Source of the DNA: Octopus vulgaris
Lineage: Eukaryota
Direction of reading: 5' to 3'
Length of the DNA: 64,000 bases
Assembly (NCBI GenBank): GCA_951406725.2
Contig: OX597815.1
Span: 63,054,001-63,118,000 of the forward strand
Shown here: piece by piece, positions 3,105 through 62,341 of the stretch
Numbering within the stretch: the stretch's first letter is position 1
Layout: each line of letters starts with the position of its first letter
Program-made: the position numbers and the translations under genes
The notes under the pieces: model-generated
The model's input: the letters and a program-made list of their open reading frames with translations, nothing else
What the model was told of the DNA's origin: nothing
The model's database searches: none

Positions 3105-3556
3105 TCACAATCAAGGAACGGCCATAATAGGCCATTCACCCACTAGAAATAACAGCCAAAAGCTTTAACCGCAAAATAACATTAATTCCGTAAACCAGGA
3201 GAAAATTGAAAAACTTTTACCCTGTAATTTCTTAGACGATGCACCGTTTCATCTACCGTTTAATGGTAAACTAACCTGATTAAATTAAATCAAGCCAATC
3301 CACCATAGGCCCTTAGACTCATCAGTAAGAAATAGCCAAGTCGGAACAGATATTTTTCACGAGGCATTCCTCTTGCTACCTCGGCAATATCTGACCTAAA
3401 ATTTTCAAATCGTCGCACTCGCGCCAAATTTATCGGCAGCAAATAAATATAAGCCACCGATTCCATTACGGAACTAACCAGAAAATTCATAATTAATCAA
3501 TATAGGGTGGCAAAAAAAATTTTGTAGAATTCTTTTGCCACCAGCGGCCTAGTAAT
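3105..3556 (-). mobile_element. ~450-bp non-coding hammerhead-bearing element (Penelope pLTR/retrozyme-like) inserted in (TA)n
   Basis: Complex-sequence block bounded on both sides by pure (TA)n; no credible ORF; contains the ribozyme at 3227-3333. Confidence 0.65.
3227..3333 (-). ncRNA. Type I hammerhead ribozyme, apparently intact
   Basis: Minus strand reads AUUUCUUA-CUGAUGA-GUCUA-[58 nt containing a 19-bp hairpin]-UAGAU-GAAA-CGGUGCAUCG-UC-UAAGAAAU. Helix I is a perfect 8 bp, both core boxes are canonical, helix III is quasi-palindromic (ACGGUGCAUCGU), and the cleavage triplet is GUC (cut between 3235 and 3234). Confidence 0.88.
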
Positions 3557-3632
3557 ATATATATATATATATATATATATATATATATATATATATATAT
3601 ATATATATATATACAGATATATATATATATAC

Positions 3633-3877
3633 TGGGCAGTGTGAGGGTTTACTGAGCGAAAACAACTAAAGCTCCACGATACTCCGGAGGGGGTGGCGAA
3701 CCCTGCCTTACTCTTTCATCACAACTTTCTCTCCTTCTGTTTTCCTGTTTCTGTTGTACCTGTGTTTCAAAGGGCCAGCCTTGTCACACTGAATCTCCCT
3801 GATAGCTACATTAAGGGTACAGGTGTCTGTGGAGTGCTCAGCCACTTGCACGTTCATTTCACGAGTAGGCTGTTCCA
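3633..3877 (+). mobile_element. SINE family C, 3' body fragment
   Basis: tttcaaagggccagccttgtcacactgaatctccctga...ttaagggtac...gagtgctcag...cacgagtaggctgttcc is the reverse-complement match of the body at 9275-9385. Confidence 0.65.
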
Positions 3878-4050
3878 TATATATAATTGAATTTTGGAAA
3901 AATTAAAAGAAAAGTTTTTTAAAAGAATATTTGCATAGTATTCAAATACAAGGGCCATTTTCCCTATTTCTGTCTGTCTCTGACTCTCTTGTTTACATTT
4001 GTGAGTTCGAGGTCAAATATATATATATATATATATATATATCCGGCTAT

Positions 4051-4444
4051 TCTCTTTTACTTGTTTCAGTCGTTTGACTGCAGTCATTCTGGAGCACCGC
4101 CTTTAGTTGAGTAAATCGACCCCAGGACCTATTCTTTAGAATCCTAGTACATATTCTATCTTTCCTTTTTGCCGAACCGCTAAGTTACGGGGCGTAAACA
4201 CTTCACCATCGGTTGTCAAGCAATGTTGGGGGGACAATCACAGACACACAAACATATACACACACATACATACGACGGACTTCTTTCAGTTTCTATCTAC
4301 CAAATCCACTCACAAGGCTTTAGTCGGTCCGAGGCTATAGTAGAAGACCTTTGCCCAAGGTGCCACGCAGTGGGACTGTACCCGGAAACCCGGAACCATG
4401 TGGTTGGTAAGTAAGCTACTTACCACACAGCCACTCCTGCGCCT
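4051..4444 (-). mobile_element. tRNA-derived SINE family A (CORE-like; octopus OR/OK-type), near full length
   Basis: Minus strand: aggcgcaggagtggctgtgtggtaag (A box)...ggttccggg (B-box region)...caccttgggcaa...gtgagtggatttggtaga...internal microsatellite...ctgaaacaagtaaaagag; about 10 copies in the window. Confidence 0.85.
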
Positions 4445-4483
4445 ATAATATAATACAATACATATATATATATATATATATAT

Positions 4484-58564: not shown

Positions 58565-59662
58565 ATTGCAGAAGAACTCTATAAATTTCTTGAGGAGAAC
58601 GATATATTACCTATTTCTTTATTACCCACAAGGGGCTAAACACAGAGGGGACAAACAAGGACAGACATAGGTATTAAGTCGATTACATCGACCCCAGTGC
58701 GTAACTGGTACTTAATTTATCGACCCCGAAAGGATGAAAGGCAAAGTCGACCTCATATTACCGCCCGAACAAAACAGCTGTAGGTGATGCAGAGGTACTA
58801 AAGAACAACTGTTGTCAACAGCTCTCATTGTTTGTGATGAAACGCGTAATAGGAGAAAAGAACAGGAATGAACTACAAAGAGAGCACGTTACACAGATCG
58901 AGGGGAAACTTGTGCATAGCCAATTTTAGAGAGTCACTGAAGACGTATGTGAAGCAAAATCCTAGGCTTGTTTAAAAAAAGGGGCAATTAAAAAAAGAAA
59001 CAGAGAGAGGAGAGTAATTGTATCATAGCAGTCCAAGACCAAGCGATAAAAACAAACAACTTGAGAAAAAATATATATGGAGAAGATGTGTCAGAAAAAT
59101 ACAGAGCTTGTGGAACTTGGAAAAAAGACAGTAGCACACACTGTGAAAGAATGCCCCCAATTTGGCACAGGAAAAGATATAAGAAATAAAGGCACTACCA
59201 GGTTAAACTAGAAACTGTGCCAGAAATGGTGATTTGAAGCAGGAAACACATGGTACAACCATCGAGTCGAAAGAGTACTAGAGTCGGAGAAATGTAAAAT
59301 TTTGTGGGACTTCCCTTTTCAAACGGACAAGAAACTAGAAAACAATAGACTAGATATTACGTTCATAGATAAAGAAAAGCGAAGTTTTGGAATATGAGAA
59401 CAGTAAAGGTCGTGCCTATAATAATTGGTGCGTTGGGAACAGTAAGCCAAGATATAGACAAAAGGCTAAAGAAGATTGAAATAGAATGACTGGTGGAGCT
59501 CCTACGGAAAGTTTGCCTCTTATGGACAGCAAAGGTTATCAGGACTTGAGAGACTGCCGAAAGCGTGTAGATACCTAAAGTTACAGGTAGTAACCTGCTA
59601 CTCACATAAATCCTACTAGGAATAAGATCAAACCTGAGCTTTGTTTCAATAATAATAATAAT
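58565..59662 (+). mobile_element. R4/Dong-like fragment (RT2 region fused to CCHC/RLE), (AAT)n tail
   Basis: EELYKFLEENDILP[SINE]PEQNSCR.CRGTKEQLL; WYNHRVERVLESEKCKILWDFPFQTDKKLENNRLDI; VVPIIIGALG. Confidence 0.85.
58612..58754 (-). mobile_element. SINE family B, 5'-truncated, with an 8-bp TSD
   Basis: atattacc at both 58604-58611 and 58755-58762; body gaggtcgactttgcctttcatcctttcggggtcgataaattaagtaccag...gtgggtaataaagaaata. Confidence 0.9.
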
Positions 59663-59855
59663 ATCGCTAAAGATTTGAACAGATAAAACAGGAAATAGAC
59701 ACAAAACCCAGTTTAGTGCAACTCCAGAAAACAGTGTTATTAGGGACAGCTAGGATGCTTAGGAGGGTTCTTGGCAACTAAGCTTACTTGTTGCCTGATG
59801 TCAGGAATTTTCCTTTTCCAACAGTCTAATCTGTTGTGTGTATATGAATAATATT
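59663..59855 (+). mobile_element. R4/Dong-like extreme 3' end, same family as 11608-11790
   Basis: cccagtttagtgcaactccagaaaacagtgttattagggacagctaggat...aacagtctaatctgttgtgtg is the reverse-complement match of 11610-11750. Confidence 0.85.
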
Positions 59856-61280
59856 AAGAAGAAGAGCAACAACAACAGCAACACCAATAACAACAACAAC
59901 ATCAACAATAATAATAATATAGAACAGCAAGAAAATAGGCCGCATAACGAGTGAATTTTTATCAGATGTTGATGACTAAAATACTATCGGAAACTAGCCG
60001 TTTATGTACAAAATAATTTTTTCTTTCATTATTTCAGTTTTAATTAAGATTGGGGTGGAATATTTATTCTGCTTATATCAATGAGTGTATGATGTACATC
60101 AAAAATAGTCCTACGTAATTAGTTATAAAAATATCGATTCGAGTATACAATATACATAATGAAACATAGTCAAATCGATACTTTCTAGGTGGAGTTACTT
60201 TTTTTTTTTTGTTACTTTCCCGCTGTTATCAACCTCTGAAAGTATCTGAGATGTTTCGATTTAAAATGTTTAAAAAATTCCAACATTAAACATGAATTGA
60301 TATTTTGAGTTTTAACTTCTACAAATACACGTTAAGTTACGTGATTACTTTCGTTGAGTCGCCAGCCTCATTTTCGTATTCAGGAACGCATATTACTAAC
60401 CACTTGTATTTCCGCTCTGTTGTTATTAAACTATCTCTGTAATCTACGTCTAATAGCGATACTCATCAAAAATCAATTTATTAGCGGATTCATTAATTTA
60501 ACGTCCAATTAATTAACTGATTAATTACAAATATTTGGTTCGAGAATTAATGAGAATATCATAATAATATTTACTGTTTTTCAAAAGGTGGAATTTATTT
60601 CGTGTCACAAGTAGCTTTGATGTATCAACTTTTCAGTATATATGTGTGTGTGCGTGTATGTGTATGTATGTGTGCGCGTGCGTGTGTTTGTGTGTGTGTT
60701 CACATACACACAACAACATATTAGATATGAGTATGTATGCATATATGTATGTGTTTAAGTATATGAATACACGCACACATATATACTTACACATACTTAA
60801 TATTTGTGTGTGTGAGCGTGCGTATGAATATATATATATATATATATATACATACACACATACATACATGCATCCATGCATACGTACATATATACATACA
60901 TAGTTGCATGCATACATACATACACACACATGCACTTACGCACACATATATACATACATACATACACATACATGCTTGTTACGTAGTCTGAATCAAAAAT
61001 TGCTCAAAGCAAATATACAAAAATAACTAAATAGTAAATTCGAGGGATGCCTACGCATATCTTATAGCCTGTTCCATACCAAAGGTACAGGTGTAGTCTT
61101 CTTCAGCTGGAGAACAGACAGAAGATATTTAAAATATCAAGTTATATACACTTGCGAAACAAGATGCTCAAAATGTGTAATAACTGAGTCTAAACATCCG
61201 TAGACCTATCTCTTTACGCGTAAAAAATATCAATTGAAGGGCGTCAAGAAGTTTAGGTGAAACCTATGTTAACAGCTATA

Positions 61281-62150
61281 TCTTTATATATATAAAACTG
61301 AGAATGTCTGTCTGTCTGTGTGTTTCCCTAAAACTTGAGAACTACAGAACCAATTTCATTCAAATTTTACACATGCCTTACTTAGGGTCCGGGGAGTGTC
61401 ATCGGCCTAAAAAATTTTGAACTTTTTTCCTAGGGCGAGCCCACAGCAATATCATATCTTCTCCACTACGATTCCCTAAAACTTGAGAACTACACAACCA
61501 ATTTCATTCAAATTTTATACATGCCTTACTTAGGGTCCATGTAGTTTCATGGGGAAAAAAACGTTCAGCTTCTTGCCTAGAGCGAGCCCATAACAATATC
61601 ATATCTTCTCCACTATTTCAGTATTACGTGTTAAAAGTGAAACAAAAACATTTCTCTATTTTATGTCAGATACTTTCACTTTAACAATAAAAATAATAAT
61701 AACAATTGAATTATATGTAGTAAGTAATAATTAAAATCAAACTAAAGTATAATATAATCGTAACATAACAAAAGTAAAAATAGCAATTGGTATAAAATTG
61801 CATCAATGACTTGAACTTGAATAAGTGGTTTCACATGAATGGGAATAAATTAAAAATAAAATTAGCGTGCAAAAATGGAATAGTCTAGATGGATAATAAA
61901 AAATTTAATTAAAGAAAAGACTATTGTCTATAAAGTATACAATGTAGAGAAAAAAGAAGATTTGAACACATGGGGGAAAGCACCGTCGAAAAATGTCTTG
62001 GTGCGACTATGAAAGGTAAATTCACCACAATAGAAGCAAGGTTCGAGTCAACGGAGCGTGCAAGGGAGTACTCGACTCGAACTTGTAAAGTGGAAATATT
62101 TTATATTTACCTTTATATCTGGGACGTAGGACGTCCCGGAAAAAAATTTA
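61281..62150 (+). mobile_element. Non-autonomous Helitron-like element with an internal 148-bp tandem duplication
   Basis: A|TCtttatatatataaa, (tgtc)n; units 61324-61471 and 61472-61615; GC hairpin ctgggacgt-agg-acgtcccgg at 62119-62139, but terminal CTRR not intact. Confidence 0.6.
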
Positions 62151-62161
62151 TACATACATAC

Positions 62162-62341
62162 ATAGGGAGAATTCACAAAAAACAAAAGACGAAGACAGGT
62201 AGTGTAGACAACAAACAGATGTATTAGTATAACGCGCTCGGAAAGTGAAAAAGTATTTAACGTTTCGAACTTACGTTCTCCACAGAAAGGAACACAGAAA
62301 GAAACAATGAGAAAAAATAAAGAATGTATAGTGGCTAGCGG
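62162..62341 (-). mobile_element. Short Penelope-pLTR-like repeat with a variant minimal hammerhead motif
   Basis: Minus 62289-62255: CUUU-CUGUGGA-GAAC-GUAA-GUUC-GAAA-CGUU-AAAU; bounded by microsatellites. Confidence 0.5.

What the first reader, a model, noticed from the sequence alone, without database searches (positions are those of the whole stretch)
3105..62341. Five dissimilar hammerhead-bearing mini-elements in 64 kb: a possible microsatellite-dwelling retrozyme ecosystem
Seen: hammerhead or hammerhead-relic motifs at 3227(-), 24012(-), 40128(+), 46994(-) and 62255(-). Their surrounding sequences show no similarity that I can see, yet they share type I topology, a palindromic or minimal helix III (ACGGUGCAUCGU, AUCAAUUGGU, AACGUU) and adjacency to TA-rich microsatellites. 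Three have elongated helix II. Inference: if this window is typical, the genome carries a very large, multi-family load of self-cleaving RNA motifs. If the region is intronic, intact sense-strand copies could cut host pre-mRNA. PLE hammerheads are known in general; the diversity and long-helix-II architecture here may be under-described.
Basis: partly seen in the sequence, partly recalled or inferred. Interest (0 to 1): 0.75.

Follow-up and report, generated by a model that had tools for sequence, protein, structure and literature searches.

The report
Octopus hammerhead retrozymes with two-start insertions
Four of the five motifs are copies of separate jumping-RNA families that carry a predicted self-cutting hammerhead fold and insert into TA microsatellites of this likely octopus genome; their two-armed insertions pair one short end with one long end, a footprint likely left by a Penelope-type enzyme copying the RNA from two start sites.

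Summary
Partly confirmed. Only 3325(-) (family A) is an intact hammerhead in the window. 40135(+) (B) and 47050(-) (C) are damaged copies of families with intact consensus cores. 62285(-) (E) belongs to a family with at least 15,088 exact motif copies whose core is CUGUNGA (A6U; 151 have A6). 24012(-) is single-copy, has no core and is not supported. A is a very young 490-nt tandem non-coding unit (947 exact motifs, about 340 insertions): a non-LTR retrozyme. Its core is invariant in 72 of 72 units except the free positions N7 and H17. Of 46 complete head-to-head A insertions, 38 pair a short end (+131) with a long end (+236), none pairs like with like, and 8 have one odd end; B follows the same rule. 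This is the Penelope 'tail' signature, here 105-250 nt instead of 30-40. An 800-kb sample gave 22 intact motifs (shuffles 0-1), about 75,000 genome-wide, 13 with a 54-78 nt helix II. Cleavage, circles, the partner enzyme and intron position are untested. The scan noted similar elements before on other DNA.

The parts
3104..3555 (-). Family A retrozyme insertion: 5'-truncated, 0.92 of a 490-nt unit (unit positions 173 to 131), ending at the short 3' end, (TA)n on both sides
3228..3332 (-). Intact type I hammerhead of family A: stem I, CUGAUGA (3325-3319), 68-nt helix II, GAAA, palindromic helix III, predicted cut after 3235
24021..24056 (-). Motif D: small hairpin plus GUCC-GAAA-UGUC, no CUGANGA, single copy; not supported as a hammerhead
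38890..40078 (-). Family B insertion, left (long-end) arm, split by a Tc1/mariner-like insert at about 39124-39936
40079..40274 (+). Family B insertion, right (short-end) arm
40123..40205 (+). Damaged family B hammerhead: CUGAAGA 40135-40141, helix II 46 nt (consensus 63), helix III broken by one change
46735..47275 (-). Family C insertion, 1.26 units of a 428-431-nt tandem unit, ending at the long 3' end in (TA)n
46995..47057 (-). Damaged family C hammerhead: core AUGAAGA (consensus CUGAAGA), 29-nt helix II with U.U closing pair, palindromic helix III
62162..62340 (-). Family E element, about 190 nt, single fixed 3' end 91-108 nt after the predicted cut
62253..62289 (-). Minimal hammerhead of family E with A6U core (CUGUGGA), 4-bp helix II, ACGU palindrome

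Best explanation
The window holds copies of four unrelated non-coding mobile elements with type I hammerhead motifs, which are likely copied into (TA)n microsatellites by a Penelope-like (PLE) reverse transcriptase-endonuclease; family A is a young tandem retrozyme whose RNA is predicted to self-cleave and would serve as a multimeric or circular template. Shown: tandem 490-nt unit without ORF, near-identical copies on many chromosomes, (TA)n targets, two fixed 3' ends, variable 5' ends, head-to-head inversions that pair a short with a long end, arms that run through up to 6 cut sites. Inferred: a source array is transcribed, the hammerhead (monomer, or dimer through the palindromic helix III) releases 490-nt units that are ligated to circles; a PLE protein nicks both strands of a (TA)n target and starts cDNA synthesis at two internal sites of the RNA (+131 and +236), one per strand; each cDNA runs round the template and the two truncated 5' ends are joined with little or no homology. 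When only one strand primes, a one-armed copy results, like the window copy. None of the window copies has two intact hammerheads in tandem, so none is a likely source. The young 781-aa Neptune-like PLE is the best available candidate partner, unproven.
For: Copies and period: (947 exact 30-mers; on C1, 95 motifs in 34 clusters, 20 head-to-head, 0 tail-to-tail). Selection on the core: 72 of 72 full units keep C3 U4 G5 A6 G8 A9 (not used to pick them); N7 has 4 states, H17 is C or A, and G10.1>A keeps the pair with U11.1. End rule: 27 of 34 complete inverted insertions short+long, 0 like+like, 7 with one odd end (10 of 58 regions incomplete and left out); replicate on 19 further loci 11 of 12, 0 like+like; p = 7e-12 for 38:0. 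Family B: the window copy and all 8 other two-armed loci among 16 shown pair an end near +63-77 with one at +289-323. Family C has end clusters near +140-165 and +261-269. PLE precedent: two RT start sites explain the tail, both strands are cut and extended, dimer predicted (PMC11167929); tail at one end, inverted 5' copies, (TA)n bias (PMC8557442). Units of one insertion are alike (mean 2.1 substitutions within an arm, 2.5 between arms, 18.7 between insertions). Circular unit folds stably (z = -5.5). A young intact Neptune-like PLE (6 of 7 ORFs differ by 11-25 of 2,343 nt) inserts in (TA)n with a 38-nt tail.
Against: No cleavage, circle or transcript was shown. No sequence link between A, B or C and any PLE terminus examined (58 GIY-YIG loci, 30 Hydra-motif loci), so the partner is unidentified and 'PLE-derived' is not shown. 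In the lowest-energy fold of the A hammerhead the core pairs with helix III, 3.8 kcal/mol below the active fold, and helix III as a monomer hairpin is marginal (-0.2 kcal/mol). Across the unit, 22 shared changes keep a predicted pair, 13 break one and none is a two-sided compensation. Within-insertion divergence was lower than to the nearest other insertion in only 9 of 19 insertions, and 2 are clearly heterogeneous, so circle and homogeneous linear multimer are not told apart. Family E has one 3' end only (48 of 56 ends at +91-108) and does not follow the rule. Family C ends are noisy. In the anole PLE, hammerhead cleavage was not needed for insertion in vitro.
Confidence: 0.78

Rival explanations
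1. Same PLE-driven insertion, but from uncleaved linear read-through transcripts of tandem source arrays; the hammerhead is a passenger and no circle is involved.
For: PAc uses unprocessed RNA in vitro; the inactive fold of A is slightly favoured; a homogeneous source array gives the same within-insertion identity.
Against: The core is kept across subfamilies up to about 8% divergent while only N7 and H17 drift, which needs cleavage to matter for spread; inner arm ends are not piled at the cut site (10 of 82 in the first of ten bins, chi-square p = 0.13), as ligated or uncut templates both predict.
Confidence: 0.3
2. The inverted arrays arise by fold-back self-priming on an antisense template (Arkhipova 2013 model) or by later DNA-level recombination, not by two-site priming.
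For: Proposed for rotifer Penelopes with palindromic junctions (PMC3846280); 6 of 41 A junctions have nearly matching inner coordinates.
Against: 35 of 41 junctions are not fold-back palindromes; a copied arm would end at the same site as the first, yet like+like ends are 0 of 46.
Confidence: 0.07
3. These are only 5'-truncated 3' ends (pLTRs) of ordinary autonomous PLEs, not separate non-autonomous elements.
For: Truncated PLE ends with minimal hammerheads are common (PMC4209133); plausible for family E, whose 5' extent is short and variable, and not excluded for B, where no tandem period was found.
Against: A arrays of up to 10 motifs are bounded by (TA)n on both sides with no ORF (longest open frame 68 aa); C is a 428-431-nt tandem.
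Confidence: 0.15
4. The motifs are chance matches in AT-rich repetitive DNA.
For: True in all likelihood for 24012; relaxed descriptors in the window are near shuffle level.
Against: Family consensus cores, 22 vs 0-1 in the genome sample, free-position variation in A and E.
Confidence: 0.02

Closest known systems
Metazoan non-LTR retrozymes (Cervera and de la Pena 2020, PMC7229834; abstract, results part 1 of 3, discussion and passages read)
   Same: Non-coding tandem units, each with a type I hammerhead, GC below 45% (A: 37%), stable predicted circle, many families per genome (coral: >6,000 motifs, 16 families).
   Different: A is 490 nt (reported 170-400 in that paper); helix II is 54-78 nt in 13 of 22 sampled motifs instead of a 4-5-bp hairpin; strict (TA)n targeting and the short+long end rule are not in the parts read; expression and circles are shown there, not here.
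Retrozymes as non-autonomous PLE derivatives (Li, Clavereau, Pollet, bioRxiv 10.64898/2026.07.22.740005; parts 1-3 of 5 read; supplements closed)
   Same: Same conclusion that PLEs carry retrozymes; units of 51-972 bp; depletion from introns reported for Xenopus.
   Different: Their case rests on co-occurrence and pLTR homology in 35 species with no mollusc; here no pLTR homology was found, and the link is the insertion footprint (two starts, one per end).
EN+ Penelope-like elements: tail, inverted pLTR, (TA)n bias (Frangieh 2024 PMC11167929, parts 1-2 of 4; Craig 2021 PMC8557442, passages, section 11, supplement hits; Arkhipova 2013 PMC3846280, passages)
   Same: Two RT start sites giving a tail at one end, head-to-head inverted 5' copies, partial tandems, microsatellite targets.
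   Different: No ORF; tail 105 nt (A, about 105 in C) or about 250 nt (B) vs 30-40 nt (38 nt in the local Neptune-like PLE); both arms can be several units long.
Minimal PLE hammerheads (Cervera and de la Pena 2014, PMC4209133, parts 1-2 of 4) and natural core variants (Perreault 2011 PMC3088659; Naghdi 2020 PMC7151607; passages)
   Same: Family E has the extra base between A9 and G10.1 and the palindromic minimal helix III; U10.1.U11.1 (family C) and U3-A8 (sample) are known variants.
   Different: A6U fixed across a family of tens of thousands of copies; the papers read report only A6C (low activity, Mn2+-favoured).

Membership tests
Type I hammerhead ribozyme (family A) | CUGANGA / GAAA / UH core with three helices, helix I open | tested here: met
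Type I hammerhead ribozyme (family A) | Core conserved while free positions vary | tested here: met
   72 of 72 units; N7 four states, H17 C/A
Type I hammerhead ribozyme (family A) | Loop I-loop II tertiary contact | not tested
   internal loop after 5 bp of helix II is a candidate only
Type I hammerhead ribozyme (family A) | Site-specific self-cleavage | not testable with these tools
   only assembled contigs were available
Type I hammerhead ribozyme (families B, C consensus) | Canonical core in the family consensus | tested here: met
   CUGAAGA is the commonest core, 17 of 33 (B) and 10 of 28 (C) aligned rows, truncated arms included; window copies damaged
Type I hammerhead ribozyme (family E) | A at core position 6 | tested here: not met
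   151 of 15,088 exact matches have A6; U6 in 30 of 35 unselected copies
Type I hammerhead ribozyme (24012) | CUGANGA core and family support | tested here: not met
Non-LTR retrozyme | Tandem non-coding units each with a type I hammerhead | tested here: met
   A: 490 nt, longest ORF 68 aa; C: 428-431 nt; not shown for B and E
Non-LTR retrozyme | Low GC, no LTR structure | tested here: met
   GC 37%; truncated 5' ends, no paired terminal repeats
Non-LTR retrozyme | Expressed as linear and circular unit-length RNA | not testable with these tools
   no raw reads of an RNA run were offered
Non-LTR retrozyme | Target-site duplication | tested here: inconclusive
   insertions sit inside (TA)n, where a duplication cannot be read
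Penelope-like element (autonomous) | ORF with telomerase-like RT and GIY-YIG endonuclease | tested here: not met
   no ORF in A or C arrays
PLE-mobilised non-autonomous element | Two fixed 3' ends, tail at one end of inverted insertions, AT-rich target | tested here: met
   A; B; C partly; E not met (one end):
PLE-mobilised non-autonomous element | Sequence shared with the pLTR of an autonomous PLE | tested here: inconclusive
   no match in 58 GIY-YIG and 30 Hydra-motif loci, a small part of 6,136 GIY-YIG candidates

The most novel reading that the evidence does not exclude
Octopus retrozymes are a distinct long-helix-II, long-tail class of circular RNA elements that a dimeric PLE enzyme copies from two start sites on one circle, one for each strand of a cut (TA)n target, each polymerase rolling round several times; the genome holds about 10^5 hammerheads that standard models miss, including a working A6U core variant in tens of thousands of copies.
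Probability: 0.35. Interest if true: 0.75.

Novelty: new variant of a known kind. Interest (0 to 1): 0.57.

Why it matters
How animal retrozymes are copied into DNA, and how PLE tails and inversions form, are open questions. A young family with 38:0 short+long end pairing gives a quantitative in-genome footprint and a ready in vitro test (RNA unit, target, candidate enzyme). The estimated load, about 27 intact motifs per Mb, is several times the axolotl figure (up to 120,000 in 28 Gb; descriptors differ) and is invisible to Rfam. Head-to-head insertions put a hammerhead on both strands, so any such insertion in an intron carries a sense-strand copy. An active A6U core would widen the accepted hammerhead consensus.

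Tried and rejected
Rfam scan of the window at E<=10: the 150 rows shown of 509 were microsatellite-driven (149 miRNA models, 1 viral UTR model), none a hammerhead; the other 359 were not seen. Rfam gathering on 8 loci: 0 hits. Expression: no RNA holder listed. Contigs of four runs only guessed to be RNA cover all 29 bins of the A unit, join its end to its start and show loose (AT)n ends at +131, +231 and +236; the single-copy control 23945-24282 was covered by the DNA-sized run X16 and not by X1, X2, X13. Contigs cannot show strand, level, cut ends or circles, so none of this is counted as evidence. Partner search: Neptune-like and other GIY-YIG loci and Hydra-motif loci (52 matches, 30 examined, longest open frame round the motif 268 aa) gave no shared sequence; Hydra copies look too decayed to drive A. 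Host exon search: 128 ORFs against Pfam gave only transposase/RT remnants and sub-threshold hits. Pile-up of arm ends at the cut site: not found. Antisense hammerhead in A: none. One search was a mis-set alignment and carries nothing. Literature searches found no paper on octopus hammerheads or retrozymes, on a 50-80-nt helix II in type I retroelement hammerheads ('long helix II' in PMC13725137 means 6-8 bp), or on A6U; most subscription papers, Repbase/Dfam entries and the preprint's supplements were not visible and may bear on these negatives.
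Full report
1. Observation. A descriptor scan of the window finds one strict type I hammerhead, at 3325(-), against 0 in 20 local dinucleotide shuffles; relaxed settings give 2 vs 0.4+-0.9 and 4 vs 1.4+-1.3. The window alone therefore proves little beyond that one motif. Searching the genome (2.8 Gb, 227 contigs) with each locus settles four of the five: 3227 (family A, 1,786 candidates), 40128 (B, 424), 46994 (C, 574) and 62255 (E, 4,937) are repeats; 24012 returns only itself, has no relative in 1.63 Mb of fetched loci and lacks CUGANGA. 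The host is inferred to be an octopus: locus L304 carries a hammerhead nearly identical to the one listed for Hydra-1_oBim in the supplement of PMC8557442.

2. Family cores. Consensus B is CUGAAGA, 63-nt helix II, GAA-ACGUGCGU-A; the window copy has lost 17 nt of helix II and one helix III pair. Consensus C is CUGAAGA, 29-nt helix II with a U.U closing pair, GAA-AUCAAUUG(G/A)U-A; the window copy reads AUGAAGA. Family E is a minimal hammerhead with the extra A before G10.1 and an ACGU palindrome, but its core is CUGUNGA: 15,088 exact 30-base matches, of which 151 have A6. In 35 copies not picked by an E query, U6 is in 30, N7 is the most variable of 176 columns, and position 17 is A, U or C, never G. 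That pattern is what selection on a hammerhead would leave, but A6 changes are reported to slow cleavage (A6C; PMC3088659, PMC7151607, passages). E may be a slow or assisted variant (my odds about 50%) or a relic kept for another reason.

3. Family A. The unit is 490 nt, 37% GC, with no ORF over 68 aa and a stable circular fold (z = -5.5). An exact 30-base motif occurs 947 times; on C1, 95 motifs fall in 34 clusters, 20 head-to-head and none tail-to-tail, which scales to about 340 insertions. Many copies are 99-100% identical, with subfamilies down to about 91%. Against activity as a monomer: the core can mispair with helix III (3.8 kcal/mol more stable), and helix III is strong only as a dimer duplex (-17.5 vs -0.2 kcal/mol).

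4. Insertion anatomy. A insertions lie in (TA)n and end at +131 or +236 from the predicted cut; 5' ends vary. Of 58 stitched regions, 10 were incomplete; of 34 complete inverted ones, 27 pair short with long, none pairs like with like, and 7 have one odd end; one-armed copies end short 7, long 6, other 1 times. Nineteen further loci from C1 (20 fetched, 1 already counted) gave 11 of 12 inverted short+long and 7 counted as one-armed, one of them a complex locus cut at the edge. The loci were the best or first hits of three searches, not a random draw, but none was chosen by end type. B shows the same rule with a tail of about 250 nt, including the window copy once a Tc1/mariner-like insert in its left arm is skipped. 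C is a 428-431-nt tandem with end clusters about 105 nt apart, noisier with age. E has a single end. Arms pass through up to 6 cut sites and their inner ends are spread over the unit, so the template was a circle or an uncut multimer, not a cut monomer. Units within an insertion are much alike, in both arms, which fits either.

5. Mechanism. The anole PLE protein cuts and extends both target strands, starts at two internal RNA sites that define the genomic tail, and is predicted to be a dimer (PMC11167929); PLE insertions carry the tail at one end and favour (TA)n (PMC8557442). The simplest reading of 38:0 is one priming event per strand at two different sites of the same bound RNA. The enzyme is not identified. 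A Neptune-like family (781-aa ORF, RT and GIY-YIG, a Cys-rich linker that I assign to Neptune from recalled clade features and PMC8557442; 6 of 7 ORFs within 11-25 nt of each other) is young, targets (TA)n and has a 38-nt tail, but shares no sequence with A, B or C. Hydra-clade copies examined are decayed.

6. Genome load. Eighty evenly spaced 10-kb stretches on C1-C23 hold 22 descriptor-intact motifs against 0-1 in five shuffles: 27.5 per Mb (bootstrap 16-41), about 75,000 in all (43,000-113,000). They fall into about 12 unrelated groups (by eye); 13 of 22 have a helix II domain of 54-78 nt, 12 of them 54-60 nt, a clustering I cannot explain. Family E adds 19 copies in the same sample, most of them outside that count. 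Rfam reports none in 8 test loci; a squid genome paper lists 235 Hammerhead_1 hits (PMC6962438, passage), and an octopus repeat annotation does not contain the word ribozyme in its main text (PMC13282606, passages).

7. Host effect. No exon was found in the window, so the pre-mRNA cutting idea is open. Only the A copy here is intact, and it may need a partner copy to cut.

8. Comparison and verdict. A (and C) meet the sequence-level definition of non-LTR retrozymes (PMC7229834); PLE mobilisation was suspected there and argued by homology in a 2026 preprint. New in the papers I could search: the very long helix II, tails of 105-250 nt with strict short+long pairing, the density, and the A6U family. 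Earlier notes of this scan describe a similar 485-nt two-armed unit in this genome and similar elements and an A6U family in other genomes; my end counts and A6U counts were made before I saw the matching notes, and the Hydra check came from one of them. Verdict: real, a new variant of a known kind, interest 0.57.

Noticed in passing
L122-L128 (G000, e.g. C2:17351500-17361499): Young Neptune-like PLE, 781-aa ORF in many near-identical copies, (TA)n target, 38-nt tail; its hammerhead-like motif has a U3-A8 core and a weak stem I.
   Followed up: partly
L228:4246 and L196, L204, L227: A PLE pLTR hammerhead with a short helix II starting UUGC..GCAU resembles the base of a 57-58-nt helix II in a non-coding family; long helix II may have grown from a PLE hammerhead.
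   Followed up: no
random sample L134-L210: Helix II domain length clusters at 54-60 nt in 12 of 22 motifs from several unrelated groups; unexplained.
   Followed up: partly
L171:6878-9558: Tandem of about 1.34 kb with a U3-A8 hammerhead in each unit, 97.6% identical.
   Followed up: no
G000:C14:56932196 region (L007, L008): One A insertion has both arms ending exactly at the predicted cut site; 1 of 41 junctions.
   Followed up: partly
window 6850-7907 and 39124-39936: Tc1/mariner-type transposase remnants (Tc3 HTH and DDE_3 hits at 6853-7907; inverted-repeat-bounded insert inside the family B arm).
   Followed up: partly
window 35838-37600 and 4300-5480: Decayed LINE-like fragments (zf-RVT sub-threshold hit at 36214-36441; RT-like reading at 4637-5437 by eye).
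   Followed up: no
window 46527-46627: 3' end fragment of a further hammerhead family seen in the random sample (L164/L210), next to the family C copy.
   Followed up: no
window 62268-62278: The window's E copy has an A-U pair where the consensus helix II has G-C; one of 35 other copies shares it.
   Followed up: partly
L032:2-1045(-): 348-aa open frame of the beta-lactamase/serine hydrolase family (PF00144), probably a host exon, near a family B copy.
   Followed up: no
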